NCBI GenBank assembly: GCA_046485075.1
Contig: JAWOHR010000212.1
Location: 422-64,421 of the forward strand
Source of the DNA: Bacteroidales bacterium
Lineage (GTDB): Bacteria; Bacteroidota; Bacteroidia; Bacteroidales; GCA-2748055
DNA length: 64,000 nt
Direction: 5' to 3'
The translations under genes and the position numbers were made by a program. Under the pieces are notes generated by a model, which was not told the DNA's origin, searched no databases, and saw only the letters and a program-made list of their open reading frames with translations. Of this stretch, positions 10,975 through 42,105 are shown piece by piece; position 1 is the first letter of the stretch, and each line of letters begins with the position of its first letter.

Positions 10975-11724
10975 ATGAAAAACGGCCTCAAATCCCTCTG
11001 CTTAAGTTTACTCCTGATTTTTGTAGTTTCAACCATGGCACCCGCGCAGGAGGTGGACCATATCTATCTCAAATCAGGCAGTGTCATCCAGGGGCGGATT
11101 CTGGAAATTGAGCCGGTTGATCACGTGAAGATAATGGATATGTGCGGTAACATCTGGTATTATGAAATCAGCGAGGTGGAAAAAATAACATCTGAATCCT
11201 TCAATGCCCCGGCACAGTCCAAACAAAAGGGTGGTTTCGATACCGGATTTGTGAACCTGACTTCCATTGGATTTCTGGCGGGTTCCTCCAATAACGAACA
11301 GGTGGCGCCTTTCTCGCTGGTAATGGTGAATGGATGGCGCAGTCAGATTGGAGCTTTTGTGGGTGCAGGTCTGGGGATCGAATTTCTCAATACGAACTAC
11401 CTTCCCATGTTTCTGGATATGAGGTATGACCTGACCGGGCAGGACGTGGTCCCATACCTGGTGGTTAAAGGTGGATATGCACTTCCCATGACTTCAGGTT
11501 ATTCAGAATACGATGTGGAATACACCTACCAGGGTGGTGCCCTGGCTGCAGCGGGAGTCGGACTTAAGATCAGGACCAGGGAGCATCTTGCCTGGGATGT
11601 TGAATTGATGTATCGCTACCAGAAAACCTCAAGATCGGAACAGTATGAGTGGAACAACCAGGAGTATCTTTACACAGATATTTACAACAGGATCGAGATA
11701 AGACTCGGATTCTATATCGACTAA
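10975..11724 (+). CDS. hypothetical outer-membrane beta-barrel protein
   Basis: Signal peptide (LLLIFVVSTMAPAQE), a Gly/aromatic-rich alternating pattern and a C-terminal aromatic residue pattern (RLGFYID). Confidence 0.5.
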   Translation: MKNGLKSLCLSLLLIFVVSTMAPAQEVDHIYLKSGSVIQGRILEIEPVDHVKIMDMCGNIWYYEISEVEKITSESFNAPAQSKQKGGFDTGFVNLTSIGFLAGSSNNEQVAPFSLVMVNGWRSQIGAFVGAGLGIEFLNTNYLPMFLDMRYDLTGQDVVPYLVVKGGYALPMTSGYSEYDVEYTYQGGALAAAGVGLKIRTREHLAWDVELMYRYQKTSRSEQYEWNNQEYLYTDIYNRIEIRLGFYID

Positions 11725-11752
11725 TCCGGCAGTCGGATTGGGTTTTCCTCCC

Positions 11753-11778
11753 GGGGCTGTCTCAAAAGGGACAGTCCC
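11753..11778. terminator. hairpin between convergent genes (candidate bidirectional terminator)
   Basis: ggggctgtc-tcaaaagg-gacagtccc gives a 9-bp stem with one G:U pair. It sits between the stops at 11724 (+) and 11835 (-). Confidence 0.45.
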
Positions 11779-11834
11779 TACTCGATTTTCTTAGGGACTT
11801 TTGAAACGGCCTCATTTTGTGCATTAAACCCGGA

Positions 11835-12407
11835 TTAGGCAGGTGTTTTCCTTGGCCGGCCCACTTTTCCTTTTTTAGTTCTTTTTGGCCGTCCGGGAAT
11901 TTCAACTTTGGCGGCATACTCCTTTCTGATCTTTCCAGGAGAATCGAACCAGTTTTTCAATGCAATATACTTTTCCCGGGTTCCCATTGAGAAGGTATCC
12001 AGCTTATGATCACGGTTTCTGAGCCTGAATACCACGTTGACAACGGCCTGCTTTGTGCTGGTTCTCTTTTGCGGTGAAATCTTGTTAAATGACATGATCT
12101 CATCGGTCAGCTGGTCATAGGTAACCGGTTTATCCATCTGCCGCATGCGTTTCATGACCATCAGTTCCCACTTGGATTTTTTTCCCGGTTTTTTCTTTGT
12201 GCCGATCTCTTTTTTCAAAGGATCAGAAATAATTCCTGCCGTACCTTTAAGCGGTGGTTCAAAGGCTACACCTGCAGGGATCTCCACATTCAGGCGGTTG
12301 AGTACCTGCGTGATATGGAGAATCCTGGCATTGGCTTTTTCATACTCCTCCAGGTAAAATTGTTTCATTTCATTAAGCTCATTATCAGGTATTTGGAGAG
12401 TCTTCAT
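11835..12407 (-). CDS. hypothetical basic protein with C-terminal AT-hook-like GRP motifs
   Basis: 190-aa ORF. It has a Lys-rich linker (GTKKKPGKKSK) and a C-terminal PGRPKRTKKGKVGRPRKTPA tail. Confidence 0.6.
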   Translation of the reverse strand: MKTLQIPDNELNEMKQFYLEEYEKANARILHITQVLNRLNVEIPAGVAFEPPLKGTAGIISDPLKKEIGTKKKPGKKSKWELMVMKRMRQMDKPVTYDQLTDEIMSFNKISPQKRTSTKQAVVNVVFRLRNRDHKLDTFSMGTREKYIALKNWFDSPGKIRKEYAAKVEIPGRPKRTKKGKVGRPRKTPA

Positions 12408-16811: not shown

Positions 16812-18500
16812 TTATCTGATTCCTTTATCAATACTCTCCATTGCCTCCTTCACCTGCTTTCTGTCAACTTCCCTGGGAATCTCCCTGGATAATGATTGCT
16901 TATACATTTCAGAGGCACGCTGCAACTCACCATTGATGCGAAAGATCTCCCCGGCTATAAACCAGGGGTAATAGTAGAAGGGATTCAACCCGAGGTAAGC
17001 CTCTAATTCTGCATTGCTGACACTCCCTGCAACCCCCTGCTCAATATGGGCTTTAAGCCGCAGTGTTTCTCTGGTATATTCCCTGTATGACCTAAACTGC
17101 TCTGAATCAAGGAAAGGATCGGGTGCGATGCTCCGCTTTTCCAGCCAGATCTGGTCCGATACCCCGGTAGAATCTGCAAAAACACTGTTCAGATCGTAAC
17201 AAAGATAGGTTCCCAGCTGGTAGGGGGAGGTGGAGACCCACATCTTTAGTTCAGAGGGCTTGAATATGACCGAATGGTGGGCAATAAGCTGATTCACAGC
17301 TTTCTCATTCCCCATACCAATGGGTTTACCACCCATACCGTTCTGATCTCTCAGCAAAAGGGCAAAGGAGTTCTGGTCGTGTTTTTGGGTGGACTCCATC
17401 AACTCCAGGGTTCTTTCCCATCGGTACATAGAGGCTCCCTCAGCAATGTTTCTCAGGGTCAACTCTGAATTCCGGAAGGTTTCACTCTGAAAATGGTTTG
17501 TAAGTACCAGGTAATCTCCACCGGGATCGTAAAGTGCAATATTGCTGGGCGATTTTTCGATCACCACGGTCCTGTTGTCAGATGCAGAACTTACCAAAAA
17601 GGATTCAGAAACAAAGGTTTCTGAGTTCCCGGCAATCTCGTAAGCCTCCGAAATGTTCGATGCGTATTGAAGAATCTGCCGCGCAAGTATGGAAACGGGT
17701 GTTTTTGAGGACCCTGGAATGCCCGATTTTGCTGCGTTAAGTGTTACTACCAGCCCCTGGTCGTTCATTCCCGAAACCACTCCGATCATTCCTCCCCATG
17801 TAACAGAAGCAAATCTGTATCCTTTTTCCGGCTTGTAGAAGGCGATGATTTTTTCCCTGGCAAATTTTTCACCCATTGAAAAATCGAAGTTTCTTCCTAC
17901 CATAAGGTTGCCATCTGCCGACCGCTGGCCATTTACCTCAAGTGCCGTGCAGGCAACCAGGTTCATGTTTTGCAGTGCATGCCCCAGATCATGTGCAGCG
18001 TGGTAGCTGAGTATTCTCTGGTAAGCCGGACCAATGAAATTGAACGAATCGGAGGCATAAAGGGCAACACCATAGATTTCCCTTTGGTACTCAACCGGTA
18101 TATGACGGTCCAGGTTCCTGTTCATCCATACAACGACCTGTTTCAGGAAATTGAGGTAGATATCCGAAGGAACCATCTCCCTGAGTTTCTCCACGAAAAC
18201 CTCTTCCTGGTATCGGATCAGGTCCCTGGCCAGAATGCCGTTCTTTACCCCAAGCTGGAAATCTGATCCTTCGAGGTACATCTCCCAAAGCCCGTAGCTG
18301 TTCTGCTTCAACCAGCTCTCCTGGCATGTATATTGACGATCTCCCACCTCAATCCGGTCGGGTAGAGGCTCAGTTTCCCCTTCGCCTGTTGGGGGGTGTA
18401 CAGGCGTGATCAATTTGAACAATACCACGAGCAAAATAATCATCCATAAAAGGCCAATGGCCCACCTTGCCCATGTGTGTCCTGGTTTTCTTTTATTCAT
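16812..18500 (-). CDS. membrane-anchored C45-family (Ntn, acyl-CoA:6-APA acyltransferase-like) acyltransferase/hydrolase with a TPR-like tail
   Basis: N-terminal TM helix (WAIGLLWMIILLVVLF). Candidate autoproteolytic/nucleophile Cys in NLVACTAL, followed by GRNFDF. Helical-repeat C-terminus. Confidence 0.55.
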   Translation of the reverse strand: MNKRKPGHTWARWAIGLLWMIILLVVLFKLITPVHPPTGEGETEPLPDRIEVGDRQYTCQESWLKQNSYGLWEMYLEGSDFQLGVKNGILARDLIRYQEEVFVEKLREMVPSDIYLNFLKQVVVWMNRNLDRHIPVEYQREIYGVALYASDSFNFIGPAYQRILSYHAAHDLGHALQNMNLVACTALEVNGQRSADGNLMVGRNFDFSMGEKFAREKIIAFYKPEKGYRFASVTWGGMIGVVSGMNDQGLVVTLNAAKSGIPGSSKTPVSILARQILQYASNISEAYEIAGNSETFVSESFLVSSASDNRTVVIEKSPSNIALYDPGGDYLVLTNHFQSETFRNSELTLRNIAEGASMYRWERTLELMESTQKHDQNSFALLLRDQNGMGGKPIGMGNEKAVNQLIAHHSVIFKPSELKMWVSTSPYQLGTYLCYDLNSVFADSTGVSDQIWLEKRSIAPDPFLDSEQFRSYREYTRETLRLKAHIEQGVAGSVSNAELEAYLGLNPFYYYPWFIAGEIFRINGELQRASEMYKQSLSREIPREVDRKQVKEAMESIDKGIR

Positions 18501-20010
18501 CCCTGATCTCCTTTAACAGTTTTCCCAAATCCAGAAGTGGTTCACAGGTAAACAGAGCCGATAAGGTCACTCCCAGCACACCATGCAGTCCCACCCCGGA
18601 ACTTTGCCCCGTGAGGAAGAGGTTGGGTATCCTGGTGTTGGTTGATATATAGGAATAACGTGCATTCCTGCAGTCCTTCATGATTCCATAGACGGTTCCG
18701 TGCGGGGTACCGGTATAATCACGGAAAGTGAGAGGAGTGGCGGTATAGTAGGTCTCAATGGCATCCCTCAGACCTTTAAGGCGCGAATCTGCAAATTCTA
18801 TTAATAGTTCGGCCCTCTTGCGCTTAAAGGTGGTATAGTCTCTTCCTCTTTTTCCCACTGTGGTATTTTCCCACTGTTTAACCTCTTCATACTTCATGTA
18901 AGCAGAAATGGTCATGCTTTCCGCATACCCGGGATTGGATTGATCGGGTGTGGTGTATAGGATGCAGGCACCCGGCCAGGGTCTTTCGAAATAGGTTCCG
19001 GGATTCCAGGAATCACTCCCGGTTGCGATATTTACGTTTGAGTTGATGTTGAGTAACTTTCCCTTTTTTAAGACAATATAGAGGCAAAACGATCCAATGG
19101 TATTTTCAAGCTCTTGAATCCTTTGCACATATGCCTTTCGGAACACTCCCGGTTCAACCAGTTTAACGGTTAGTGCCGGGTGCAGGCTGGAGATGAAATG
19201 GTCCCCTTTAACCATCGATCCGTCCCGTAACTCAATAGCCGTTGCTCTCCTTTCGTTTGTAATAAATCTGACCACCTCGCTGTTTATCCTCACCTCTCCG
19301 CCGTTTTGGGCGATGACATGCTCCAGTGCAGTCGCAAGCCGGTCACTTCCTTTGCTGAATTTCCAGGCACTCTGAATATAATGGTAGTGGATAATGGCGT
19401 GGGTGATCAGGGGTGATTTTCCGGGCTCACCAGCATAAAAAGCGCTGTTCACACCCCACAGTGCGCGCAGTTCGTGATTGTCGGTAAGGCTGTCGATGAA
19501 TTCAAATGCATCGATCTGGGTGTAACGGGTATCTGCATCAAGGTGGTTCCTGAAATCCTGAAGGTTCAGCACATTGGTACTGTTCCAAATCTCCTCAATC
19601 TTTTCAAGGTATGCATGAATGGCCGCTCCCTCGGATGGGAAATAGGTGAGAAGACGTTCCCTGTGCGCCTCCATTCCGCCGGCAAGGAGGTACTCCCTGT
19701 CGGACAGGTAAAGTCGTTCATATTGATCCCGATCGAGTCGCTCCAGTCCGGTTTGATCCAGTATCCCCAGGTATTTGAATACCTGGTGAAGGATCTGCCC
19801 CTTCTCCATCGTTCCCACAAAGTGCATGGCTGAATTAAAGACAACTCCTTTTCGCTTGAAGGTTTGCAGGTTACCCCCGATCTGGTGATGTTTTTCAAGG
19901 ATCAGGACCCTGTAGCCATTGAGGGAAAGAAGCGCCCCGCACATCAATCCACCTATGCCGCTTCCAATGATAACCACATCGAATCCTCCGTTGTTTCTGC
20001 TTCTCTCCAT
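18493..20010 (-). CDS. FAD-dependent oxidoreductase, phytoene desaturase (CrtI)-like
   Basis: N-terminal dinucleotide fold (DVVIIGSGIGGLMCGALL...LEKHHQIGG) and CrtI-like length. Confidence 0.8.
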   Translation of the reverse strand: MERSRNNGGFDVVIIGSGIGGLMCGALLSLNGYRVLILEKHHQIGGNLQTFKRKGVVFNSAMHFVGTMEKGQILHQVFKYLGILDQTGLERLDRDQYERLYLSDREYLLAGGMEAHRERLLTYFPSEGAAIHAYLEKIEEIWNSTNVLNLQDFRNHLDADTRYTQIDAFEFIDSLTDNHELRALWGVNSAFYAGEPGKSPLITHAIIHYHYIQSAWKFSKGSDRLATALEHVIAQNGGEVRINSEVVRFITNERRATAIELRDGSMVKGDHFISSLHPALTVKLVEPGVFRKAYVQRIQELENTIGSFCLYIVLKKGKLLNINSNVNIATGSDSWNPGTYFERPWPGACILYTTPDQSNPGYAESMTISAYMKYEEVKQWENTTVGKRGRDYTTFKRKRAELLIEFADSRLKGLRDAIETYYTATPLTFRDYTGTPHGTVYGIMKDCRNARYSYISTNTRIPNLFLTGQSSGVGLHGVLGVTLSALFTCEPLLDLGKLLKEIRDE

Positions 20011-23000
20011 CTACCGGTAAATGATATAAGTAATATTTGAGGTGAGCCTTGAATGGTCAACCCTCTTCCATTGAAATCCCTTCCGTTCTGCCACACGCTC
20101 TATGGCAGTAGCGGGAAGAAAGGTAAGGGGATAGAGGGTCTTGTTGAACCGCAATATTCGGGTCGACTGGATTTCAGTGAATTTGGTATAGAGGGTACGC
20201 CGCTTTAAATCTGCATCTGCATCGCGAAGAATCACCATTCCCTTTATATTCAAAGCATCCATACAGCGTTCCAGGAGTGCGATCTGAAGTTCCTCGGTAA
20301 GGTAGTGCAAAACATCATTAAGAACAAAGACATCAGCTGAAGGCATACTAAATGAAGTGATGTCAGCATCAATGAACCGGATATGCTCCATCCCACGGGC
20401 CGCCATTCGGGCGGTCGCAATCTTCCGGTTGTCGTAATCGATTGCCGTGATATTCCGCTCCCGCGAGGTTAACCCCAGCATGATGGAAAGAAACCCAAAG
20501 CCGCATCCCAGATCAACCACCGAGGCATCGAAAGGAATGATCCTGTGATAGAATGCATAGTTTTTCTCCATGTTCAACTTGACTTTCAGGTACCACTCCA
20601 GGACAGGGCCTTTGTAGAGAAACAGACCAACCAGTTTGTTTCTGAAATAGCCGGTGTCTCCCAACTGTTGGTGCAGGATTTTGTACTCTTTCCGGTAGAA
20701 AGCCGTTACCTCTTTGGCCTGCAAATGGTAGGTCCTTTCACCTTCATACACCCTGTATTCCGGTCTGATTCTCTGATAAAATTTCATGGTAAGCCTTCCA
20801 TGCTTCAGGAAGTGCTCCGATTTTGGCAGGGCATCATACGCCCCATGGACAATCACCGGTTGAATATCCAAACCCAGCATGCTGGCTAAACCGAATGCAC
20901 CCTGGTGAAACCGTTTGATGGTGCCGTCGGGCGATCTGCTTCCTTCGGGGAAAGCCAGGATGGTGTAACCCTCCGCGACCTTCTGTTTGAGACCTTCAAA
21001 ATTGTAATCAAGTCCCTTGTAGATAGGGTAGTATCCGGCAAACCGGATAATGAATCCATAGAATGCATTGTTCCAAACCCACTTATTAACCAGTACAATC
21101 ATTTTGGGATTTAACTGGAGCAAAAATACCAGGTCCAGTTGTGACTGGTGGTTGGAGATGATCACTGAAGGTGTGGTGAAGTCGGCCAGTTCCCTGTTGA
21201 TGTAATTTTTACTGATGGGAAAAGAGATTTTTATAATAAAGCGGGTGGAAAGAAAGATCAGGTAACCCGCCAGCCTTTTCTTTCTACTTCGGTTAAGAGG
21301 CAGCAACATAATGAGGGGGAGGAGCAGTGTTGCCAGGATGGCGGAGCCAAGGAAAAGGATAAAGAACACCAATGTGGAGACCATAACCGAAAGGGTAAGC
21401 GGTTCAAGTCTGTAGTTACCCTTACTCCTGGTCAGGAAGTTAAAGAGCAGTGGCAGTAAAGTGTATGAAATAATGACCACTGTGGAGATACCGAATATGG
21501 AGACCAGGGCGATGGATTTCAGGGCCGGGTGCCGGGCAAATATGAGTACACCGATGGCACCGATGGTGGTCAGAGCCGACAGGAGGATCGATAACTTGTA
21601 GGGACCAAGACTCTGGTTGCCCTCCCGGTGTTTTGCAATGATCCCGTTCATGATAAATATGGCGTAATCGATTCCAAGCCCGAAAACAAATGTGGAAATG
21701 ATGATGTTGAAAATATTAATCTCAATCCGGAACAGCCCCATTAGCCCCAGGGTCCACATCCAGCTGACCATAATAGGGATAAAAGTGATCACTGCAATCT
21801 CGATCCTGCCAAAAAAAAGAAGGAGGATCAGGAAAACGACGATCATGGAGAGGGTGACCAGTTTACTAAAATCCTCTTTCAGAACATCGAAGAACTGGTT
21901 GATGAAGTACTGTCCGTCGAAAATGATAAACGCTTCATTCCCGGAGAGCCTCTTAAAAAGTTCAGGTTTAGCGGTTGGATCAACCATCAGGATGGAGACC
22001 ACCGACCAGACTCCATCTTCCATGGAGATGAAGTTGTGGAGGAACAGGTCCATCAATAAACCATACTCCTTCATAGGGATGGGTTGAAACTTTTTGTCCA
22101 GCAGGTCGAAAAAAGGCTGGAAGGCATCCTCCCTGAAGTGGTAATCCACTCCGCTGCGATTTATGTTAGCTTTAATGATTTCAGCATCAGAGGTTTCCCA
22201 GAAATCGTTCCACCGTTCAATTTTCTCCTTCTGTCCTTCGCCAGAAAGCATAAGATCCGAAACCCAGGAAATCTCCGTAACCACCCCATCCTCTTTGCAG
22301 GACTCCAGCATCAGGCGGTTGGATTCAATCTTTTTCAAAGCCTCTTCCAGCGAATTTCCCTGTGTGACCAGGTAGACAGAGCTGTTTGCCACCGAACTGA
22401 TGGATTTGAGTTTTGCCTCAGCACTGACCAGGTCATCCGACATGTAGTTCAGGGTGGAGATGTCACCGTTGAATCTGATGTTTTGTGAAGTAAAGGCAAA
22501 CAGAATGGTCAGCAACAAAAGAGATATCACCAGGGTTCGGTTCTTCTCAAAGGAGTACCCTACCATCTTTTCGATCCGTTTGGAAATCCTGGTTCTTTTG
22601 GGGTCTGAACCCTTCTCCCCATCCTTCATTAAGAGGGGAAGGACCACCAATACCGTGAGGGCAGCGAAGGTGACTGCAAAAGCAGCAAAGAATCCGATCT
22701 GGTTCATTGCCTGCGAATGAATAATCGAAAGACAGAGGAAGGCAGACGCAGTGGTAATCCCGCTCATGAGTATGGGCATTGTAATGCGACCGATGGTTTC
22801 CTTTATTGAATTACCTGACCTGATATGGGTAAAGAAGTGCAAAGAGTAGTCTACCGTAATTCCCATGAAGATCACACCAACCCCCAATCCAATGGCCGAG
22901 ACCTCACCGTAGATCAGGGTCAGCATGGCAATGGAGATCAGTGAACCTATCACCACCGGCAGAAACATGAATAAGATCACCCTGATCTTTCGGAAGAATA

Positions 23001-23853
23001 TAAGGAATATAAGAAGGAAGAAGATAAAAGCAATGGATAGGGTCAGTCTGATATCTTTCTTTACTCTTACCGAATTTGCCACAGCTACGGCAGTACCTCC
23101 GTAATAATCAATTTTGACAGGATCCAGGGTGGTAATTTCGCGGATGGACTGATCCATGTATTGGATGAGCTTCAGGTTCTCCTTGGTGTTGGATCCCGGA
23201 TATGCAGGATCCATGAATATCATCAGGTTCTTTTTGTCACGTGTAAATATGGCCGAGTTTAAGACCATGAAATTGTCATCAAGCTGAAACCTGTTAAGCT
23301 TTTTCAACGCGATGGGGGTAAGGTTCAGAGGGTCCTTCAGGATAAATTTTCCCGTAGCCATACCGGCCGGGGAGATCAGTGTTCTGAATCCTCGGTGGAT
23401 GGTCTTGTCGATCTCCTCCGGGGTGAGGATCTTCCCGATTTCTATGTAATCCTCTTCATCCAGAAAGATGGGCAGATTCTCCAGGATAAAGTCATAGATC
23501 CTGAGCATGGCATCACCACCCACCTTGAACCGGATATCACCCACCAGTTCCTTTCGTTGTTCGAGCATTTCAACCAGGTGCTCACCACTGGATATCAGAT
23601 GGTCCGGATCAACTTTGGATGTGTCCTCCAGGGAGACCATGAAAATGATCTGATCGGCCAGTTGCGATTTATCGAATACTTTACTGATTCGACTGATTCG
23701 CTGGTCCTCCGGAATAATTGCATTCAGATTCTCTTCGATCCTGACACCCGAGGCCACGAGGGCGAAAACGCCCATGACAATGGTGAACAGGAGGAAAAAC
23801 AACCATTTTCTCCTTTCAAGGGTTCTGTTGATAATTACAAAGACACTTTGCAT
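20011..23853 (-). CDS. trifunctional fusion: MMPL/RND-type exporter + lysophospholipid acyltransferase + class I SAM-dependent methyltransferase (1280 aa)
   Basis: Residues 1 to about 850 form two blocks of TM helices with large loops (MMPL-like). An HX4D motif (SNHQSQLDLVF) and FPEGSRSPDG lie near aa 900-960. SAM motif I (VVDLGCGFGFLS) is at aa 1112. Confidence 0.8.
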   Translation of the reverse strand: MQSVFVIINRTLERRKWLFFLLFTIVMGVFALVASGVRIEENLNAIIPEDQRISRISKVFDKSQLADQIIFMVSLEDTSKVDPDHLISSGEHLVEMLEQRKELVGDIRFKVGGDAMLRIYDFILENLPIFLDEEDYIEIGKILTPEEIDKTIHRGFRTLISPAGMATGKFILKDPLNLTPIALKKLNRFQLDDNFMVLNSAIFTRDKKNLMIFMDPAYPGSNTKENLKLIQYMDQSIREITTLDPVKIDYYGGTAVAVANSVRVKKDIRLTLSIAFIFFLLIFLIFFRKIRVILFMFLPVVIGSLISIAMLTLIYGEVSAIGLGVGVIFMGITVDYSLHFFTHIRSGNSIKETIGRITMPILMSGITTASAFLCLSIIHSQAMNQIGFFAAFAVTFAALTVLVVLPLLMKDGEKGSDPKRTRISKRIEKMVGYSFEKNRTLVISLLLLTILFAFTSQNIRFNGDISTLNYMSDDLVSAEAKLKSISSVANSSVYLVTQGNSLEEALKKIESNRLMLESCKEDGVVTEISWVSDLMLSGEGQKEKIERWNDFWETSDAEIIKANINRSGVDYHFREDAFQPFFDLLDKKFQPIPMKEYGLLMDLFLHNFISMEDGVWSVVSILMVDPTAKPELFKRLSGNEAFIIFDGQYFINQFFDVLKEDFSKLVTLSMIVVFLILLLFFGRIEIAVITFIPIMVSWMWTLGLMGLFRIEINIFNIIISTFVFGLGIDYAIFIMNGIIAKHREGNQSLGPYKLSILLSALTTIGAIGVLIFARHPALKSIALVSIFGISTVVIISYTLLPLLFNFLTRSKGNYRLEPLTLSVMVSTLVFFILFLGSAILATLLLPLIMLLPLNRSRKKRLAGYLIFLSTRFIIKISFPISKNYINRELADFTTPSVIISNHQSQLDLVFLLQLNPKMIVLVNKWVWNNAFYGFIIRFAGYYPIYKGLDYNFEGLKQKVAEGYTILAFPEGSRSPDGTIKRFHQGAFGLASMLGLDIQPVIVHGAYDALPKSEHFLKHGRLTMKFYQRIRPEYRVYEGERTYHLQAKEVTAFYRKEYKILHQQLGDTGYFRNKLVGLFLYKGPVLEWYLKVKLNMEKNYAFYHRIIPFDASVVDLGCGFGFLSIMLGLTSRERNITAIDYDNRKIATARMAARGMEHIRFIDADITSFSMPSADVFVLNDVLHYLTEELQIALLERCMDALNIKGMVILRDADADLKRRTLYTKFTEIQSTRILRFNKTLYPLTFLPATAIERVAERKGFQWKRVDHSRLTSNITYIIYR

Positions 23854-25038
23854 CTATCGCTTGGGTTTAAAAAGGATCAGTAGAATATAGGAGAGCAGGC
23901 CGGAAAACATTCCCGCAATAGAGGCAAAAACAACTGCTCCGGTTAGGTATTGTTTCAGATTCTGGCCAATGGAAGCAAGGTTCAGTTCCACATCAACCAG
24001 CCAGCTTCCATCACCAAGCACATAACTTCCCGCAACATAACTCAGGTATAGAATAATGGGGATCATCGGTGGAATACTGATGTTGGCTGTAATAAAAAAA
24101 ATCGCCTTGTTCAATTTCAACAGGTGTGCGAAAAAGAACCCGACGAGCAGCTGGTAACCCCAGATAGGCAAAATTCCCATGAAAATACCCAAGGCCACAG
24201 AAAAGGCGATCGTGTGATGGGGTGTTCCGCTTTTAATAATATCCTCCCTGAGAATCTGCCTCAGGCTCTTGCTCCGGTATTTACGATACAAATTCCGGGG
24301 CCTGAAATAGGCGAGGCCCAGGAATACCAGCATGAAATTTAATAGGGTGATCCGCATAAAATCCCTGAAAGGCCTGAAGTGGGAGACCCTTTGTTCGCCC
24401 GGCGGATAATACACCTTTATCGGAATCTCAGTGACGGGTATCTCCTTCCAGACCGTTTTTACAAGGAGCTCCAATTCGAACTCATACCTTCCTGAAACCA
24501 GGCGGGTCCCTTCCAGTTTCCTGATGGGATAGAGCCTGAATCCTGATTGGGTATCCTTCAGCCGGAGTCCGGTTCCAACCCGGAACCAGAAACTGGAGAG
24601 CGAGTTGGCAAACCGATTCCTGAGGGGCACGTTCTCCTTATCAAGAACCCTGGACCCCATTACTAATACAGGAGATTGATGATCCAGGACATCAAGGAAG
24701 GCAGGTATATCCCCGGCACTATGCTGACTGTCAGAATCGAGCGTAATGGCATAATCAAACCCTCTCTCAAGGGCTTTTGCAAAGCCTGCCCTCAAAGCAG
24801 CCCCTTTGCCCAAATTACGGGGGAAGGAAATCACTGTAATTGAAGGGTGTATGGAGAGAATGGCTGAAGTTTCATCAGTGGATCCGTCATTTACGACAAT
24901 CACTTCCGATTGGAAACTCTCCACCGAGCGAAGCAACTTATCCAGAAACCTGGCATTGTTGTAAGTCGGGATAACCACACAGCACTTTAACCGCTCAAAT
25001 ACCTCTTTATAGATTTTGTTTTTGCTCTCTGAACTCAC
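23854..25038 (-). CDS. family 2 glycosyltransferase fused to a DUF2062-like membrane domain
   Basis: GT2 motifs (VVIPTYNNARFL, VNDGSTDET, LDSDSQH). The C-terminal TM region (HHTIAFSVALGIFMGILPIWGYQ) is typical of DUF2062. Confidence 0.8.
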   Translation of the reverse strand: MSSESKNKIYKEVFERLKCCVVIPTYNNARFLDKLLRSVESFQSEVIVVNDGSTDETSAILSIHPSITVISFPRNLGKGAALRAGFAKALERGFDYAITLDSDSQHSAGDIPAFLDVLDHQSPVLVMGSRVLDKENVPLRNRFANSLSSFWFRVGTGLRLKDTQSGFRLYPIRKLEGTRLVSGRYEFELELLVKTVWKEIPVTEIPIKVYYPPGEQRVSHFRPFRDFMRITLLNFMLVFLGLAYFRPRNLYRKYRSKSLRQILREDIIKSGTPHHTIAFSVALGIFMGILPIWGYQLLVGFFFAHLLKLNKAIFFITANISIPPMIPIILYLSYVAGSYVLGDGSWLVDVELNLASIGQNLKQYLTGAVVFASIAGMFSGLLSYILLILFKPKR

Positions 25039-25391: not shown

Positions 25392-26072
25392 TTATCTTTT
25401 CAACTCAGTTAAGTCAATTCTCAGCCTGATTCCCCTGTGCACTATTCTGATCTCCAGGGGTTCAGGCCCGCCTGTTTTTTTAGTTTCCCCGATACCAATT
25501 TGAAAATCGACCCTTTCAAATAATCCATTTCGCCTTCGGATGCGGACCGGACCCAGATTCTCACAATAGTTGTAAGCGTAACGTTGTGAATTGTATCTGA
25601 ATTTCAACACCTCGGTAACTCCGTCATCCATTTGTCTGACCTTAAACTCAACAATTTGTGACAAATCTAGCAATAACGTTTGAAAATCGTTTTGCAGGGT
25701 CTTTAATATAGATGGCCGGTTTAAAAATTCCTGGACGCTCACTACCTCAACCCGGTCATTCCGGAATGCCATATCCAGCAGGTTTAGTCCCAGTTCGGAG
25801 AGGAAAACCACATGTATGGCACTGTCTGCAGGAAGCTGTTTTACCAGGATAAGCCCCGAATAGTAATCTCCGAACACATGGATGGCCGCTTTGAAAAGAA
25901 GGGACTCTTTCACAACGCCGAGGGGTGCGAATTTTCCAAGCCCGCCATTGGTTTGCAAGGTATCGATCTTCCCCTCTGAGTAAGGGGCAGACGCCCTGCA
26001 GAAAGGGATCAGTATATTAATAATCAACAGAGAAAACAGGATCCTCAATGGGCTCATTGATTTTCTTATCAA
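25392..26072 (-). CDS. hypothetical lipoprotein (possible LolB/DUF3261-like partner of the adjacent LolA-like gene)
   Basis: Signal peptide/lipobox-like N-terminus. Function is inferred from position only. The start is uncertain because the ORF overlaps the upstream gene by 41-56 nt. Confidence 0.45.
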   Translation of the reverse strand: MIRKSMSPLRILFSLLIINILIPFCRASAPYSEGKIDTLQTNGGLGKFAPLGVVKESLLFKAAIHVFGDYYSGLILVKQLPADSAIHVVFLSELGLNLLDMAFRNDRVEVVSVQEFLNRPSILKTLQNDFQTLLLDLSQIVEFKVRQMDDGVTEVLKFRYNSQRYAYNYCENLGPVRIRRRNGLFERVDFQIGIGETKKTGGPEPLEIRIVHRGIRLRIDLTELKR

Positions 26073-26670
26073 TAAATTTGATCACTGTATAGTCCTTCTC
26101 ACTCTCCTTCATGATGACCTCTTCAACAGTCAGGTCCAACTTGTTGAAATAGATCTCCATGGTGGAGATTACCTCTCTCATGCCGTTATCTTTTGGAACC
26201 AGGCTGATCTTGTATTGCCGGCTGTTTTCAAAAGCTGCCCTTTCAAACCTATCCCCGGTAATATTGCCCCTGACCATATCCACAATCAGGTTGTTGATCC
26301 CGGCAAAAGCAGGATTTGACTCAATGTCATATGCACTTACCTGTTCCCCGTCCCTGATGCGAAACTGTCCCTCGTGAATGACAATCACGTAATCAAACGG
26401 TTCCTTGTAGGCCCATCGAAGGTTGTTCTCTTTCTTGAACCAGAAGGCGCCATTGCTAATGATGGTTTCATCCAGGAACTCCAGCTGTTTCTGCTGGATA
26501 AAATTACTCTGTATGGTTTCGATCCTGGCTGCATTTTCATTGAGGCGGACAATAAGCTGGTCAATATTCTCCACCCTGCGAAACTCATCCTGCACCCTGT
26601 ATCCGCTGCCGGCAATGGTAACAAGGGTAAGTATCCACACCATGATCAACCTGGCTTTCATTACTCCCAT
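26017..26670 (-). CDS. LolA-like outer-membrane lipoprotein carrier family protein
   Basis: Signal peptide and a LolA-type pattern (IQSNFIQQKQLEFLDETIISNGAFWFKKENNLRWAYKEPFDYVIV). Confidence 0.75.
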   Translation of the reverse strand: MGVMKARLIMVWILTLVTIAGSGYRVQDEFRRVENIDQLIVRLNENAARIETIQSNFIQQKQLEFLDETIISNGAFWFKKENNLRWAYKEPFDYVIVIHEGQFRIRDGEQVSAYDIESNPAFAGINNLIVDMVRGNITGDRFERAAFENSRQYKISLVPKDNGMREVISTMEIYFNKLDLTVEEVIMKESEKDYTVIKFIDKKINEPIEDPVFSVDY

Positions 26671-30601: not shown

Positions 30602-31498
30602 GTGATGCCCGGATGGTCTGGAAAATCAAAAGGAGGGGCACTGGGGTACCGGATCTTTCTCTTACTGATCAGGCACACCCGTATTCATGTTACCTATTAT
30701 TTTATCAGGATCGTTGCACTCTATTACCTCCTTTTTTCAGATAAAAGGAGTCTGAGGTACTATTTTCGATCCATTCACGGTTATAGCCGTTGCTCCACCC
30801 TGAGGAGTATCTATCAGAATTACTGCCTGCTTGGAGAGGTACTGGTGGATAAAGTGGCCATGTTGTCGGGTGCAAAAACGGACTATTCCTTCCATTTCGA
30901 AGGCGAAGAGCATCTTCAGACCATGAGTTCCATGGGAAAGGGTGGTGTTCTCATCGGTGCGCACATGGGGAACTGGGAGGTGGCCGGACAACTGCTTGAA
31001 AGAATTGATACGCCTGTGAATATTGTGATGCGGGAAGCGGAACATGAGCAGATCAGGAAGTTGCTTGAGGAGGTGATGGTAAACAGGAACCTCAGGGTCA
31101 TTCCCCAGAAGGAGGACTATTCCCACCTGTTCCTCATTGATGAAGCCCTTAAAAATCATGAATTTGTGGTCTTACACGGAGACAGGTATACACAGGGTGC
31201 CAATACCGTTTCCGTTTCTTTCATGGGTAAACCGGCGCGCTTTCCGTCGGGACCGATCTACCTGGCCAGCAAAAGGGGTGTGCCTGTCTCTTTTGTATTC
31301 ACCCTCAAAGAGGGGAAAACACATTATCACTTCTATGCCACCCCCGGGAAAGTATATCCTTATCCGGCGCGGATCAAAACACGGTTGGCAGAAATCCACC
31401 AGATGGTGGAATCATATGTCCGGTCTCTGGAGAAAATGGTCAGAAAATACCCCCTTCAATGGTTTAATTACTACGCTTTCTGGGAAGAGGAGATTTAG
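30602..31498 (+). CDS. LpxL/HtrB-like lysophospholipid acyltransferase (LPLAT)
   Basis: N-terminal TM helix and an LpxL-type catalytic dyad context (GAHMGNWEVAG). Confidence 0.75.
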   Translation: MMPGWSGKSKGGALGYRIFLLLIRHTRIHVTYYFIRIVALYYLLFSDKRSLRYYFRSIHGYSRCSTLRSIYQNYCLLGEVLVDKVAMLSGAKTDYSFHFEGEEHLQTMSSMGKGGVLIGAHMGNWEVAGQLLERIDTPVNIVMREAEHEQIRKLLEEVMVNRNLRVIPQKEDYSHLFLIDEALKNHEFVVLHGDRYTQGANTVSVSFMGKPARFPSGPIYLASKRGVPVSFVFTLKEGKTHYHFYATPGKVYPYPARIKTRLAEIHQMVESYVRSLEKMVRKYPLQWFNYYAFWEEEI

Positions 31499-31567: not shown

Positions 31568-32641
31568 ATGAAACTTAACTACGGATCTGATAAAAAGTCC
31601 GCTTTACAGGCAAAATTCGATGCCCAGAAAATAGCTTTTGGGCCAATCATGTTCCAGGCGGCCAGAACCCTGAGAGATCTTGGCATTCTGGGTCTGATCC
31701 GTTCCCACAGGAGCGAAGGAATAGGGATGGAGGAGATTGCCCGTGAGCTTGACCTGAGCCTTTACGGAGTAAAAGTTCTGCTGGAGGCGGGACTAAGCAT
31801 GGAACTTCTTATGGTGCAGGAGGGCAGGTTCAGAATCACCAAAACCGGTTGGCACATTCTTAGCGATGAGCTCACCAATGTCAATATGGATTTTACGCAT
31901 TACGTGAACTATCTGGGAATGTATAGCCTGGATGAATCGATCCGTACCGGGACCCCAACCGGTCTGAAGAATTTTGGTGAGTGGGATACCCTTTATGAGG
32001 GACTCAGCCAGTTTCCCCCACAGGTGCAGAAGAGCTGGTTTGCCTTTGATCACTTCTATTCCGACTACTCCTTTTCGGAGATATTGCCACTGGTTCTAAC
32101 CCCCGGGGTAAGGCAGATCCTTGATGTGGGGGGCAATACAGGGAAATTTGCAATCCGTTGTGCCAGGTGGAACGAAGATGTGCATATCACCATCCTGGAT
32201 CTTCCCGGACAACTTGAAAAAGCCATGACCAGTATCGATCATGAGGGGTTATCAAGCCGCATCACCTGTATTCCCATTAACCTCCTTGACCATTCCAGAA
32301 ATTTCCCCGGGGGTATGGATGTGATCTGGATGAGTCAGTTCCTGGATTGTTTTTCAAAGGAGGATATTTTGGAATTATTGCGTCGCAGCAGGGAGGCGAT
32401 GGGGAGCCATTCAGCACTCTTTATCATGGAGTTGCTGTGGGATCGTCAGAAATTTGAAGCGTCCACCTACAGCCTGCATGCCACATCGCTTTACTTCTCT
32501 AATATTGCCAATGGATGCAGCCAGATGTACCATTCTGATGATTTACTTGAACTGATTGAGCAATCGGGCATGATGGTAGAGGATTCCTATGATTACATCG
32601 GCATCAGCCATACGCTCCTCAAATGCAGGCTGAAGTCGTGA
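31568..32641 (+). CDS. class I SAM-dependent (O-)methyltransferase with an N-terminal dimerisation/winged-helix domain
   Basis: SAM motif I (ILDVGGNTGKFA) and a plant/actinomycete OMT-like architecture. Confidence 0.8.
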   Translation: MKLNYGSDKKSALQAKFDAQKIAFGPIMFQAARTLRDLGILGLIRSHRSEGIGMEEIARELDLSLYGVKVLLEAGLSMELLMVQEGRFRITKTGWHILSDELTNVNMDFTHYVNYLGMYSLDESIRTGTPTGLKNFGEWDTLYEGLSQFPPQVQKSWFAFDHFYSDYSFSEILPLVLTPGVRQILDVGGNTGKFAIRCARWNEDVHITILDLPGQLEKAMTSIDHEGLSSRITCIPINLLDHSRNFPGGMDVIWMSQFLDCFSKEDILELLRRSREAMGSHSALFIMELLWDRQKFEASTYSLHATSLYFSNIANGCSQMYHSDDLLELIEQSGMMVEDSYDYIGISHTLLKCRLKS

Positions 32642-40786: not shown

Positions 40787-40866
40787 TTCATTATACTTGA
40801 ATTTATTACTTATGTTTGAAATGTAAAAGTCGCCCAATGATTAACGGATTAGTTTCCCATTTTTTT

Positions 40867-41907: not shown

Positions 41908-42105
41908 ATTTTATATCATACAACATGAGTAAAAATACGGAAATAAAATTGGCAAGCAACTATTTTTCGGGCTGTGTATCTCCCATCCCCAGTGCAATCC
42001 TTGATAAAAAGTTGATATCTATTTTGCTCTCAGGCTAGGGGAGCGGGGCAGATTTAATTATCTTACAAAAAGCGATTATCTTTACACCTTCAATTGAGGA
42101 GATAG

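What the first reader, a model, noticed from the sequence alone, without database searches (positions are those of the whole stretch)
20011..23853. Single 1280-aa polypeptide fusing an MMPL exporter, a lysophospholipid acyltransferase and a SAM methyltransferase
In the model ape/flexirubin loci the exporter, acyltransferase and methyltransferase are separate proteins. Here one uninterrupted ORF carries all three: an MMPL-like 12-TM region (about nt 21300-23853), an HX4D/FPEGSRS acyltransferase module (about nt 20675-21245) and a motif-I-bearing methyltransferase (VVDLGCGFGFLS, about nt 20014-20640).

The fusion implies that lipid acylation, methylation and membrane export of the pigment-lipid are physically coupled. 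It is a natural Rosetta-stone link between these activities. A second free-standing methyltransferase (31568-32641) and two more acyltransferases are also present, so the fused domains probably have a distinct substrate.
Basis: partly seen in the sequence, partly recalled or inferred. Interest (0 to 1): 0.6.

Follow-up and report, generated by a model that had tools for sequence, protein, structure and literature searches.

The report
Known FlxU exporter-acyltransferase-methyltransferase fusion
The 1280-residue three-in-one membrane protein (lipid exporter, acyltransferase, methyltransferase) is real and under selection, but it is the ordinary FlxU gene of flexirubin-type pigment clusters, noted in 2014 and already named in RefSeq, and its biochemistry is still untested.

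Summary
Window 20011-23853 (-) is one 1280-codon ORF with an MMPL/RND transporter (residues 1-808), a PlsC-type acyltransferase (about 815-1040) and a class I SAM methyltransferase (1106-1280). All three pass Pfam cut-offs and keep their catalytic motifs.

It is not new. The gene sits in the flxT-U-V-W-Y order of the Chitinophaga pinensis flexirubin cluster. [quoted passage not shown] At least 399 species genomes carry a relative. This scan has flagged the same architecture in at least 77 other genomes, and the follow-up verdicts I read also called it FlxU.

What I add:
- The fused parts correspond to ApeM plus ApeD. ApeB's counterpart is the free-standing methyltransferase at 31568-32641, so the fused methyltransferase is an extra domain.
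- In Flavobacterium-like lineages the fused methyltransferase has decayed, and the ApeB-like methyltransferase was not found in any of them.
- This genome has no detectable DarB, so the product is probably an aryl-polyene lipid, not a classical flexirubin.

The parts
20011..23853 (-). Whole flxU-type gene: 1280 codons plus a TAG stop. TAG-ATG abutment with the neighbouring gene at both ends.
   Evidence: ORF and translation; the upstream junction reads ...CGA TAG ATG CAA... and the downstream junction ...CGG TAG ATG GAG...
21430..23853 (-). MMPL/RND transporter, residues 1-808. TM1, periplasmic loop 1 (about 41-263), TM2-6, TM7, periplasmic loop 2 (about 461-659), TM8-12.
   Evidence: Pfam MMPL 82.8 bits. 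NCBIfam HpnN/HAE3 profiles hit but fall below their equivalog cut-offs. Hydropathy. AF2 helices. Closest solved protein is HpnN: 6wu0 at 4.4e-13 and 5khs by fold at 2.7e-08. E. coli ApeM aligns to residues 13-801.
22837..22854 (-). TM4 motif VDYSLH with the invariant D335-Y336 pair, a candidate proton relay.
   Evidence: D335 and Y336 are invariant in alignment A1. Coordinates. The proton-relay role is inferred from MmpL3/HpnN literature as I recall it.
21655..21672 (-). TM10 motif IDYAIF with the invariant D729-Y730 pair, the second half of the candidate proton relay.
21226..21411 (-). Two hydrophobic helices, residues 815-876 (AF2 helices 821-850 and 855-876), flanked by basic clusters TRSKGNYR and NRSRKKR. 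They are homologous to the N-terminal two-helix membrane anchor of PlsC.
   Evidence: Hydropathy and charges. AF2. The profile of A2 positions 29-240 aligns to T. maritima PlsC 5kym residues 11-225 at 7.9e-18.
20734..21225 (-). PlsC/LPLAT-type acyltransferase catalytic core, residues 877-1040. HX4D at 902-907 (nt 21133-21153 for NHQSQLD) and FPEGSRS at 968-974 (nt 20932-20952).
   Evidence: PF01553 52.5 bits. H902, D907, P969, E970, G971 and R973 invariant. Foldseek to 5kym with target TM-score 0.77-0.80. ApeD aligns to residues 824-1044 at 4e-16.
20539..20733 (-). Helical linker, residues 1041-1105, carrying the strongly conserved motif KGPVLEWYLKVK (1081-1092, nt 20578-20613).
   Evidence: K1081, G1082, P1083, L1085, E1086, W1087, Y1088 and K1092 invariant. 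The motif is lost exactly in the homologues whose MT has decayed. Modelled at high confidence.
20014..20538 (-). Class I SAM-dependent methyltransferase, residues 1106-1280. Motif I VVDLGCGFG (nt 20494-20520), acidic AIDYD (nt 20431-20445), LNDVLHY (nt 20302-20322).
   Evidence: Six Pfam MTase models above cut-off. D1114, G1116, G1118, G1120, D1139 and D1180 invariant. Foldseek to 3dtn, CmoA/YecO and BelI/CysG with target TM-score 0.61-0.71. Profile hits to phosphoethanolamine N-methyltransferases at 7e-10.
23854..25038 (-). Upstream neighbour: GT2 glycosyltransferase fused to DUF2062 (FlxT position). Homologous to the N-terminal half of E. coli ApeJ.
   Evidence: Pfam. blastp ApeJ residues 8-232 at 3e-36. 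Gene order compared with Schoner 2014.
18493..20010 (-). Downstream neighbour: FAD-dependent amine-oxidase/phytoene-desaturase-like oxidoreductase (FlxV position).
   Evidence: Pfam. Gene order.
26017..26670 (-). LolA-like carrier (FlxQ/ApeL position), the presumed periplasmic acceptor for the exported lipid.
   Evidence: Pfam LolA 4.7e-12. Weak blastp hit to ApeL at 1e-05.
31568..32641 (+). Free-standing O-methyltransferase-like enzyme, the true ApeB (and probably FlxJ) counterpart.
   Evidence: Pfam. blastp to E. coli ApeB: 43% identity over 352 aa, E 4e-109.
30602..31498 (+). LpxL-type acyltransferase (FlxE position). Homologous to the C-terminal half of E. coli ApeJ, not to ApeD.
   Evidence: Pfam Lip_A_acyltrans. 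blastp ApeJ residues 250-550 at 7e-26.

Best explanation
This gene is an orthologue of FlxU, the exporter-acyltransferase-methyltransferase fusion of flexirubin-type aryl-polyene pigment clusters in Bacteroidota.

Shown here:
- One selected ORF encodes a 12-TM MMPL/RND transporter of the HpnN/ApeM kind.
- It is followed by a PlsC-like two-helix membrane anchor, a PlsC/LPLAT acyltransferase with intact HX4D and PEGxR motifs, a conserved helical linker, and a class I SAM methyltransferase with intact motif I.
- The transporter half is the counterpart of E. coli ApeM and the acyltransferase is the counterpart of ApeD. The methyltransferase has no counterpart in the E. coli ape cluster.

Inferred mechanism:
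- The acyltransferase and methyltransferase sit on the cytoplasmic face of the inner membrane.
- The ApeD-like domain acylates a lyso-glycerolipid type anchor with a cluster-made acyl chain, as proposed for ApeD in Xenorhabdus.
- The methyltransferase, rigidly packed against it, methylates a still unknown membrane-bound intermediate. This is probably not the ring position served by the ApeB-like enzyme.
- The proton-driven RND half then extracts the finished pigment-lipid and passes it to the LolA-like carrier for delivery to the outer membrane.
- No DarB was detected in this genome, so the product is more likely an aryl-polyene lipid than a dialkylresorcinol-ester flexirubin.
For: Identity and architecture:
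- ORF and domains. Catalytic residues invariant in 12 and 36 homologues.
- The gene order GT2-DUF2062 / fusion / FAD oxidoreductase / Ntn-AAT / F390-type ligase equals flxT-U-V-W-Y.
- FlxU is described as exporter plus acyl- and methyltransferase domains. The RefSeq trifunctional name is quoted in PMC12968099.

Conservation:
- 922 and 2780 homologues in two searches, with the top 120 of each nearly all about 1280 aa and carrying all three Pfam sets.
- At least 399 species genomes carry a relative.
- 459 representatives at 50% identity reach E<=1e-30 for the AT-MT part, and 115 of the best 150 are full length.
- dN/dS is 0.12-0.23 in every domain and at both junctions.

Correspondence to ape genes: blastp of CFT073 ApeM, ApeD, ApeB and ApeJ against the window's proteins.

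Structure:
- AF2 of residues 800-1280 gives pLDDT 90 and pTM 0.86. AF2 of residues 430-1280 gives pLDDT 86 and pTM 0.74.
- PlsC 5kym matches with target TM-score 0.77-0.80, class I MTases with 0.6-0.7, and HpnN is the top transporter hit.

Cytoplasmic placement:
- Basic clusters flank the 815-856 hydrophobic stretch on both sides.
- Residues 828-876 are homologous to PlsC's two-helix anchor.
- SAM and acyl-ACP/CoA are cytoplasmic (established knowledge).

Roles of ApeD, ApeB and ApeM come from Grammbitter et al. and Johnston et al..

No DarB: best score 28.5 bits against a cut-off of 550 in a 99.4%-complete genome. The same model scores 694 bits in G123.
Against: - No experiment on any FlxU exists in the literature I could search.
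- The acyl donor, the acyl acceptor and the methyl acceptor are all unknown.
- The 821-850 helix is 30 residues long and could in principle span the membrane.
- AT-containing forms were present in all 16 DarB-positive genomes examined. The two AT-less forms were both in DarB-negative genomes. This is also compatible with the AT working on dialkylresorcinol.
- C. pinensis has two methyltransferases but only one methionine-derived methyl in flexirubin, so the fused MT's product is unaccounted for.
- The MT is dispensable in whole lineages.
Confidence: 0.7

Rival explanations
1. The fused acyltransferase performs the final flexirubin step. It esterifies the aryl-polyene acid to the phenolic OH of a dialkylresorcinol directly at the exporter, rather than acylating a glycerolipid.
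For: All 16 DarB-positive genomes among the 19 carrying a homologue retain the AT domain. The two forms that lost the AT (G091, G279) are in DarB-negative genomes. The enzyme that joins polyene and DAR has not been shown experimentally; Schoner 2014 only proposes FlxW.
Against: This genome (99.4% complete) and G079 keep an intact AT without DarB. The AT is homologous to ApeD of E. coli, which makes no DAR. NCBIfam now names a separate BtrH-related acyltransferase, DarH, in DAR clusters. The co-occurrence counts come from few, related lineages.
Confidence: 0.12
2. The fused methyltransferase is a chromophore (aryl-ring) methyltransferase acting together with, or redundantly to, the ApeB/FlxJ-like enzyme. 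It is not an enzyme with a distinct lipid substrate.
For: Decay of the fused MT and absence of the ApeB-like MT go together: 0 of 13 genomes with a decayed MT have the ApeB-like gene, against 4 of 5 with an intact MT. The same holds for the published pair: F. johnsoniae lacks FlxJ, and Fjoh_1078 is listed without an MT domain. Xenorhabdus APE lipids carry mono- and dimethyl rings. Fold neighbours include natural-product C- and O-methyltransferases.
Against: In Xenorhabdus, ApeB alone accounts for both ring methyls; the apeB deletion gives desmethyl products. C. pinensis flexirubin takes up only one methionine methyl despite having two MTs. The fused MT shares no detectable similarity with ApeB or the window's free MT. 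G279 keeps the ApeB-like MT with no fused MT at all. Kin are not independent.
Confidence: 0.3
3. The AT and MT domains of this protein are non-catalytic scaffolds or cargo-recognition modules for the exporter (pseudo-enzymes).
For: In Flavobacterium-like and Chryseobacterium-like genomes the MT has lost motif I (ILHLANDFG) and about 32 residues, yet the remnant is retained. This shows the domain can persist without catalysis.
Against: In this protein and in 36 aligned homologues every catalytic motif is invariant: HX4D, PEGxR, DxGxGxG and the acidic beta-2 residue. dN/dS of the MT is 0.23 and of the AT 0.12.
Confidence: 0.05
4. The long ORF is an assembly or sequencing artefact that joins two or three adjacent genes.
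For: The source is a metagenome-type assembly of 230 contigs, and reads could not be inspected.
Against: The same colinear 1275-1300 aa protein occurs in hundreds of independent assemblies, including closed chromosomes. The 95%-identical L001 has the identical frame, and both junctions are under purifying selection. The published C. pinensis FlxU has the same domains.
Confidence: 0.01

Closest known systems
[quoted passage not shown]
   Same: Same three domains in the same order. Same position between flxT (GT2-DUF2062) and flxV (FAD oxidoreductase), followed by flxW (Ntn/AAT) and flxY (F390-type ligase). Similar size: FlxU's self-score of 2659 bits fits about 1280-1290 aa.
   Different: I could not fetch the C. 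pinensis sequence, so no direct alignment was made. The host here has no detectable DarB, unlike C. pinensis, which makes a DAR-ester flexirubin. FlxU itself has never been characterised.
Fjoh_1078 of Flavobacterium johnsoniae and the roughly 1215-1224 aa forms found here (L088, L089, L090, L095)
   Same: Orthologous position in the cluster. Intact MMPL and PlsC-type AT. Fjoh_1078 is listed as 'predicted exporter- and acyltransferase domain', 37% identical to FlxU over 91% of its length.
   Different: Their C-terminal domain is a decayed methyltransferase: motif I has become ILHLANDFG or ILHMADDFG, about 32 residues are deleted and the GPVLEWY linker motif is lost. The window's protein keeps all of these.
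E. coli CFT073 / Xenorhabdus doucetiae aryl-polyene system: ApeM (RND), ApeD (LPLAT), ApeB (SAM MTase), ApeJ (GT2/acyltransferase)
   Same: ApeM aligns to residues 13-801 (21% identity, 3e-16). ApeD aligns to residues 824-1044 (27%, 4e-16). The cluster also has LolA-like, thioesterase, KS/CLF and ACP genes. The proposed logic of acylating a lipid anchor, exporting by RND and handing to Lol-like carriers is the same.
   Different: ApeM and ApeD are separate genes in E. coli. The fused MT has no ape counterpart: ApeB matches the window's free-standing MT at 43% identity. Conversely, ApeJ is a single protein in E. coli but two genes here, GT2-DUF2062 and an LpxL-like AT. The starter here is tyrosine-derived via an ammonia-lyase, not 4-HBA.
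HpnN, the hopanoid RND transporter of Burkholderia (PDB 5KHN/5KHS, 6WU0)
   Same: Closest solved relative of the transporter half by sequence (4.4e-13) and by fold. It is a lipid-shuttling MMPL-type RND with two periplasmic domains.
   Different: Far below the NCBIfam HpnN equivalog cut-offs (108 against 752 bits for TIGR03480, 39.8 against 1100 for NF052374). HpnN has no fused enzymes, and its cargo and gene context differ.
PlsC, the 1-acyl-sn-glycerol-3-phosphate acyltransferase of Thermotoga maritima (PDB 5KYM)
   Same: The fold matches with target TM-score 0.77-0.80 over about 240 columns, including the N-terminal two-helix membrane motif. HX4D and the PEGTR-type motif are conserved.
   Different: About 20% identity. 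Below the TIGR00530 cut-off (53.8 against 102.95 bits). It is fused between a transporter and a methyltransferase. The genome has separate small PlsC-like genes (L083 and L084) that could be the housekeeping enzyme.

Membership tests
FlxU-type trifunctional MMPL/LPLAT/methyltransferase | Single polypeptide with MMPL, then PlsC-type acyltransferase, then class I methyltransferase, in that order | tested here: met
   Pfam hits above cut-off in that order. Colinear full-length alignment with 12 and 36 homologues.
FlxU-type trifunctional MMPL/LPLAT/methyltransferase | Located in a flexirubin/aryl-polyene type cluster between flxT (GT2-DUF2062) and flxV (FAD oxidoreductase) | tested here: met
   Neighbour domains compared with the published gene lists. 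The same synteny is seen in L088 and L093-L095.
FlxU-type trifunctional MMPL/LPLAT/methyltransferase | Direct sequence similarity to C. pinensis FlxU (Cpin_1873) | not testable with these tools
   The C. pinensis sequence could not be fetched. Named loci returned did not include Chitinophaga. Orthology rests on architecture, synteny and the family's continuity across Bacteroidota.
RND superfamily, MMPL/HpnN-like (aryl-polyene exporter ApeM kind) | 12 TM helices with two large periplasmic loops (after TM1 and TM7), and a Pfam MMPL match | tested here: met
   Hydropathy. AF2 helices for TM7-12 and periplasmic domain 2. PF03176 82.8 bits with two stretches. Full-length alignment to ApeM.
RND superfamily, MMPL/HpnN-like (aryl-polyene exporter ApeM kind) | Charged or polar proton-relay residues in TM4 and TM10 | tested here: met
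   D335-Y336 and D729-Y730 are invariant. Their function as a relay is inferred from MmpL3/HpnN literature, not tested.
HpnN (hopanoid transporter) equivalog | Score above the NCBIfam equivalog cut-off | tested here: not met
   TIGR03480 108.2 against 751.85 bits. NF052374 39.8 against 1100 bits. Related, but not an HpnN.
PlsC/LPLAT (AGPAT) acyltransferases | HX4D catalytic dyad and (F/Y)PEG(T/S)R motif, and the PlsC fold | tested here: met
   H902-D907 and P969-E970-G971 with R973, invariant. PF01553 52.5 bits. 5kym at 7.9e-18 and target TM-score 0.77-0.80.
PlsC/LPLAT (AGPAT) acyltransferases | Housekeeping 1-acylglycerol-3-phosphate acyltransferase (TIGR00530 cut-off) | tested here: not met
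   53.8 against 102.95 bits. It is a family member by fold and motifs but not the housekeeping subfamily.
Class I SAM-dependent methyltransferases | Rossmann-like fold with motif I (D/E)xGxGxG and an acidic residue at the end of beta-2 | tested here: met
   VVDLGCGFG (1112-1120) and D1139 are invariant. Six Pfam models above cut-off. Fold matches to 3dtn, CmoA and others.
ApeB / FlxJ-type aryl-ring methyltransferase | Sequence similarity to ApeB | tested here: not met
   ApeB hits only the free-standing MT at 31568-32641 (4e-109) and not the fused MT, even at E<=1.
Classical flexirubin (DAR-ester) pathway | Presence of DarB (and DarA) in the genome | tested here: not met
   NF053539 best score 28.5 bits against a cut-off of 550 in a 99.4%-complete genome. 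No homologue of G123's DarB-adjacent gene. A DarH-family gene is present on another contig.

The most novel reading that the evidence does not exclude
FlxU could be an RND transporter that finishes its own cargo. The ApeD-like acyltransferase and the extra methyltransferase, held as one rigid unit on the cytoplasmic face, would build or mark the pigment-lipid directly at the entrance of the transporter. Export would then be licensed by acylation and methylation. The methyl mark would not be the known ring methyl. It might be a head-group methylation or a transient, BioC-style carboxyl methylation that is absent from the mature pigment. That would be a mode of enzyme-coupled RND transport not yet demonstrated, and it would explain why C. 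pinensis has two methyltransferases but only one methyl in flexirubin.
Probability: 0.15. Interest if true: 0.65.

Novelty: already known. Interest (0 to 1): 0.22.

Why it matters
Aryl-polyene and flexirubin clusters are among the most widespread biosynthetic gene clusters in Gram-negative bacteria. How their products are attached to a lipid and moved to the outer membrane is still only a model.

FlxU is a natural fusion of the ApeM-type exporter with the ApeD-type acyltransferase. This supports the view that anchor acylation and export are functionally linked. FlxU also offers a single handle (one protein, three sets of point mutants) to test that model.

For this window specifically, the gene is an ordinary family member. 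The useful corrections are:
- The fused acyltransferase is the ApeD equivalent.
- The fused methyltransferase is an extra domain with no assigned product.
- The host appears to lack the dialkylresorcinol branch.

Tried and rejected
- **Read-level check of the junctions.** I replaced it with a comparison to an independent assembly and dN/dS.
- **My own expectation about ApeD.** I expected the LpxL-like AT next to the ACP (30602-31498) to be the ApeD equivalent and the fused AT to be 'extra'. blastp rejected this: ApeD hits only the fused AT, and the LpxL-like AT matches the C-terminal half of ApeJ.
- **Direct sequence comparison with model organisms.** A second homologue search from the Sphingobacteriaceae orthologue gave no RefSeq isolate names. 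The control genomes of the genome search include no flexirubin producer. Literature was used instead.
- **Geometric test of topology.** I ran AF2 on residues 430-1280 to ask whether AT and MT lie opposite the periplasmic domain. The model is good (pLDDT 86, pTM 0.74), but coordinates are not exposed, so the orientation could not be measured.
- **Assigning the MT a substrate from homology.** Hits are generic class I enzymes. Phosphoethanolamine N-methyltransferases are only marginally the best (41 against 37 bits), and fold hits are mixed. This is not diagnostic.
- **Stand-alone AT-MT proteins.** Most short hits in the representative library are 5'-truncated gene calls. Only a few (P0241, P0346) start exactly at the domain boundary.
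- **Taxonomic names.** Names of the sampled G-genomes are hidden. Equating g10 with Flavobacterium and g12 with Chryseobacterium is inference only.

Full report
**Observation.** The window holds one open reading frame at 20011..23853 on the minus strand, 1280 codons, starting with ATG. Pfam finds all three claimed domains above its curated cut-offs:
- MMPL: 82.8 bits, two stretches.
- PF01553 acyltransferase: 52.5 bits, residues 893-1002.
- Class I methyltransferase models: Methyltransf_25 at 42.7 bits, residues 1112-1205, and five others.

NCBIfam adds HpnN-like/HAE3 RND profiles and the AGPAT domain. All of these fall well below the equivalog cut-offs, so the parts belong to these superfamilies without being the housekeeping or hopanoid enzymes.

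The quoted motifs sit at residues 901-907 (NHQSQLD), 968-974 (FPEGSRS) and 1112-1120 (VVDLGCGFG). The gene abuts both neighbours as TAG-ATG with no spacer.

The substitute evidence is strong.
- A homologue search returned 922 relatives. The best 120 were almost all 1275-1314 aa and carried the same three Pfam sets, at 41-78% identity.
- A scan of species-representative genomes found at least 399 genomes with a relative. The best 80 all aligned over the full length. They come from Bacteroidales, Marinilabiliaceae, Paludibacteraceae, Saprospiraceae, Sphingobacteriaceae and Flavobacteriales.
- A second search seeded from the Sphingobacteriaceae orthologue found 2780 relatives.
- In an exhaustive library clustered at 50% identity, the AT-MT part alone has 459 relatives at E<=1e-30. 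Of the best 150, 115 are at least 1228 aa long.
- The 95%-identical orthologue from an independent assembly (L001) has the identical 1280-codon frame. dN/dS is 0.21 (MMPL), 0.18 (junction 1), 0.12 (AT), 0.20 (linker/junction 2) and 0.23 (MT).

**Context.** The gene lies in a two-operon cluster of the aryl-polyene/flexirubin kind.
- On the plus strand: an aromatic amino-acid ammonia-lyase, a ketoreductase, three ketosynthases plus a chain-length-factor-like partner, an ACP, an LpxL-type acyltransferase, an O-methyltransferase, a hotdog thioesterase and a polysaccharide deacetylase.
- On the minus strand: a LolA-like carrier, two small ORFs with no Pfam match, GT2-DUF2062, the fusion, an FAD oxidoreductase, an Ntn/AAT-family protein, an F390-type ligase, a PlsC-type acyltransferase and a MaoC dehydratase.

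The order GT2-DUF2062 / fusion / FAD oxidoreductase / Ntn / ligase is the flxT-U-V-W-Y order of the published Chitinophaga pinensis cluster.

**What is already known.**
- The supplementary table of Schoner et al. [quoted passage not shown]
- The same table lists the Flavobacterium johnsoniae orthologue Fjoh_1078 as 'predicted exporter- and acyltransferase domain', 37% identical over 91% coverage.
- I found no paper that tests the protein.
- This scan has noted the same architecture in at least 77 other genomes. The follow-up agents whose notes I read reached the same FlxU verdict. I reached mine before reading those notes.

It is right for the proteobacterial ape loci. In E. coli CFT073, ApeM (RND), ApeD (LPLAT) and ApeB (SAM methyltransferase) are separate genes (PMC8253772; RefSeq annotation).

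**Which ape genes correspond to which domain?** I translated the CFT073 ape genes from the annotated record and compared them with the window's proteins.
- ApeM aligns to fusion residues 13-801 (21% identity, 3e-16).
- ApeD's only hit in the window is the fused acyltransferase, residues 824-1044 (27%, 4e-16). It does not hit either free-standing acyltransferase.
- ApeB matches the free-standing methyltransferase at 31568-32641 (43% over 352 residues, 4e-109). It does not hit the fused methyltransferase.
- ApeJ is the mirror case. Its N-terminal half matches GT2-DUF2062 (3e-36) and its C-terminal half matches the LpxL-type acyltransferase (7e-26). These are two genes here.

FlxU is therefore ApeM plus ApeD plus a third domain that the E. 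coli system lacks. This corrected my own prior guess that the LpxL-like enzyme was the ApeD equivalent.

**Structure and topology.**
- AlphaFold2 on residues 800-1280 with 36 homologues gave mean pLDDT 90 and pTM 0.86. That implies a fixed arrangement of acyltransferase, helical linker and methyltransferase.
- The model matches T. maritima PlsC (5KYM, target TM-score 0.77) and small-molecule class I methyltransferases (3DTN, CmoA/YecO, BelI/CysG).
- A profile of the family aligns residues 828-1039 to PlsC residues 11-225 (7.9e-18). The two helices at 821-850 and 855-876 therefore correspond to PlsC's N-terminal two-helix membrane motif.
- Basic clusters flank the 815-856 hydrophobic stretch on both sides (TRSKGNYR and NRSRKKR). 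An RND transporter ends in the cytoplasm, and SAM and acyl-thioesters are cytoplasmic (established knowledge). Together these place both enzymes on the cytoplasmic face. This is inference.
- The second model (residues 430-1280, pLDDT 86, pTM 0.74) could not be measured because coordinates are not exposed.
- The transporter half is closest to HpnN by sequence and by fold.
- It keeps invariant Asp-Tyr pairs in TM4 and TM10. I recall that MmpL3 uses such pairs as its proton relay.

**Variation in the family.** Among 401 sampled genomes of the phylum, 19 others carry a clear orthologue. I read eight of these loci directly. The rest are assigned by open-frame length and extent of match.
- Five have the intact three-domain form (1277-1302 aa frames). 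L093 and L094 were confirmed by Pfam.
- Twelve have frames of 1219-1243 aa. In the four I read (L088, L089, L090, L095; annotated ORFs 1215-1224 aa), the C-terminal 220 residues are a decayed methyltransferase. Pfam, run on three of them (L088, L089, L095), finds no MTase. In the alignment of all four, motif I reads ILHLANDFG or ILHMADDFG, about 32 residues are missing, and the conserved linker motif GPVLEWY is gone.
- One (993 aa) has deleted the acyltransferase but keeps the decayed tail.
- One (812 aa) is transporter only.

This matches the published contrast between FlxU and Fjoh_1078.

The ApeB-like free methyltransferase is present in 4 of the 5 genomes with an intact fused MT, in 0 of the 13 with a decayed one, and in the transporter-only genome. 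F. johnsoniae likewise lacks FlxJ. These lineages are related, so the count overstates independence.

A few representatives in the exhaustive library start exactly at the MMPL/AT boundary (P0241, P0346). A few others join a short new N-terminus to the TM8-12 bundle (P0244, P0260, P0263). These suggest rare split or half-transporter forms. Many other short hits are plain 5' fragments.

**What does this organism make?**
- NCBIfam has curated DarB, DarH and FlxA models. They score 694, 517 and 902 bits in the Flavobacterium-like genome G123.
- In the window's own genome (99.4% complete), DarB reaches only 28.5 bits against a cut-off of 550.
- The gene next to G123's DarB has no homologue in this genome.
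- A DarH-family gene is present on another contig.
- Among the 19 genomes with an orthologue, 16 have DarB. The two forms without the acyltransferase are both DarB-negative. G079, like this genome, keeps the acyltransferase without DarB.

The product here is therefore more likely an aryl-polyene lipid than a dialkylresorcinol ester.

**Mechanism, with its status.**
- Shown: the architecture, conservation of catalytic residues, homology to ApeM and ApeD, the rigid AT-MT unit, and the operon context with a LolA-like carrier.
- Inferred from Xenorhabdus and E. coli work: the ApeD-like domain acylates a lyso-glycerolipid anchor at the inner leaflet. The RND half then exports the finished lipid toward the outer membrane via the LolA-like protein.
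- Unknown: the methyl acceptor. ApeB alone accounts for ring methylation in Xenorhabdus. C. pinensis flexirubin contains one methionine-derived methyl although the cluster has two methyltransferases.
- I therefore favour a substrate other than the ring, such as a head group or a transient mark (about 0.4). The chromophore is next (about 0.3). The co-loss of both methyltransferases keeps the chromophore rival alive.

**Verdict.** The finding is real, correctly located and correctly parsed into domains. It is an ordinary member of a family that is already annotated and was already noted in the model flexirubin cluster. Novelty: already known. Interest is low to moderate. It rests on the untested biochemistry and on the small refinements above: the ApeM+ApeD equivalence, the extra methyltransferase and its decay series, and the absence of DarB in this host.

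Noticed in passing
window 23854-25038 (-) and 30602-31498 (+): E. coli ApeJ (GT2/acyltransferase, one protein) corresponds to two separate genes here. Its residues 8-232 match GT2-DUF2062 (3e-36) and its residues 250-550 match the LpxL-type acyltransferase (7e-26). This is a fusion/split relationship running opposite to that of FlxU.
   Followed up: partly
G000:C147:20264-21235 (own genome, another contig): A DarH-family BtrH-related acyltransferase scores above the NCBIfam cut-off (329.9 against 300 bits), although the genome has no DarB above cut-off and no homologue of G123's DarB-adjacent gene. RND-type genes lie nearby on the same contig.
   Followed up: no
L088 7998-11669, L089 8054-11728, L090 8251-11898, L095 7949-11620: FlxU orthologues of about 1215-1224 aa whose C-terminal domain is a decayed methyltransferase: motif I lost, a roughly 32-residue deletion, and the linker motif GPVLEWY lost. 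None of the 13 genomes assigned this state has an ApeB/FlxJ-like methyltransferase.
   Followed up: yes
L092 8232-11213 and L091 9075-11513: Further eroded forms: a 993-aa protein (MMPL plus decayed MT tail, acyltransferase deleted) and an 812-aa MMPL-only protein. In L091 a cupin/JmjC-like gene (11500-12375) follows the transporter where the FAD oxidoreductase normally sits. Both genomes lack DarB.
   Followed up: partly
window 20578-20613 (-), residues 1081-1092: The linker motif KGPVLEWYLKVK is among the most conserved stretches of the whole protein (eight invariant residues in 12 sequences). It disappears together with MT motif I in the decayed forms, so it probably belongs functionally to the methyltransferase, perhaps as a substrate lid.
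   Followed up: partly
proteins P0241, P0346; P0244, P0260, P0263: Rare alternative architectures appear in the representative library. Some are free-standing AT-MT proteins starting exactly at the MMPL/AT boundary. Others are proteins of about 677-691 aa with a short novel N-terminus joined to the TM8-12 bundle plus AT-MT. Their genomic context could not be examined.
   Followed up: no
protein P0143: A FlxU homologue labelled 'Burkholderiales bacterium' is 81% identical to a Sphingobacteriaceae protein. This is probably a mis-binned Bacteroidota contig, not a proteobacterial FlxU.
   Followed up: no
window 40001-42000: G+C drops to 0.377 against about 0.46-0.50 elsewhere in the window, just beyond the pigment cluster.
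   Followed up: no
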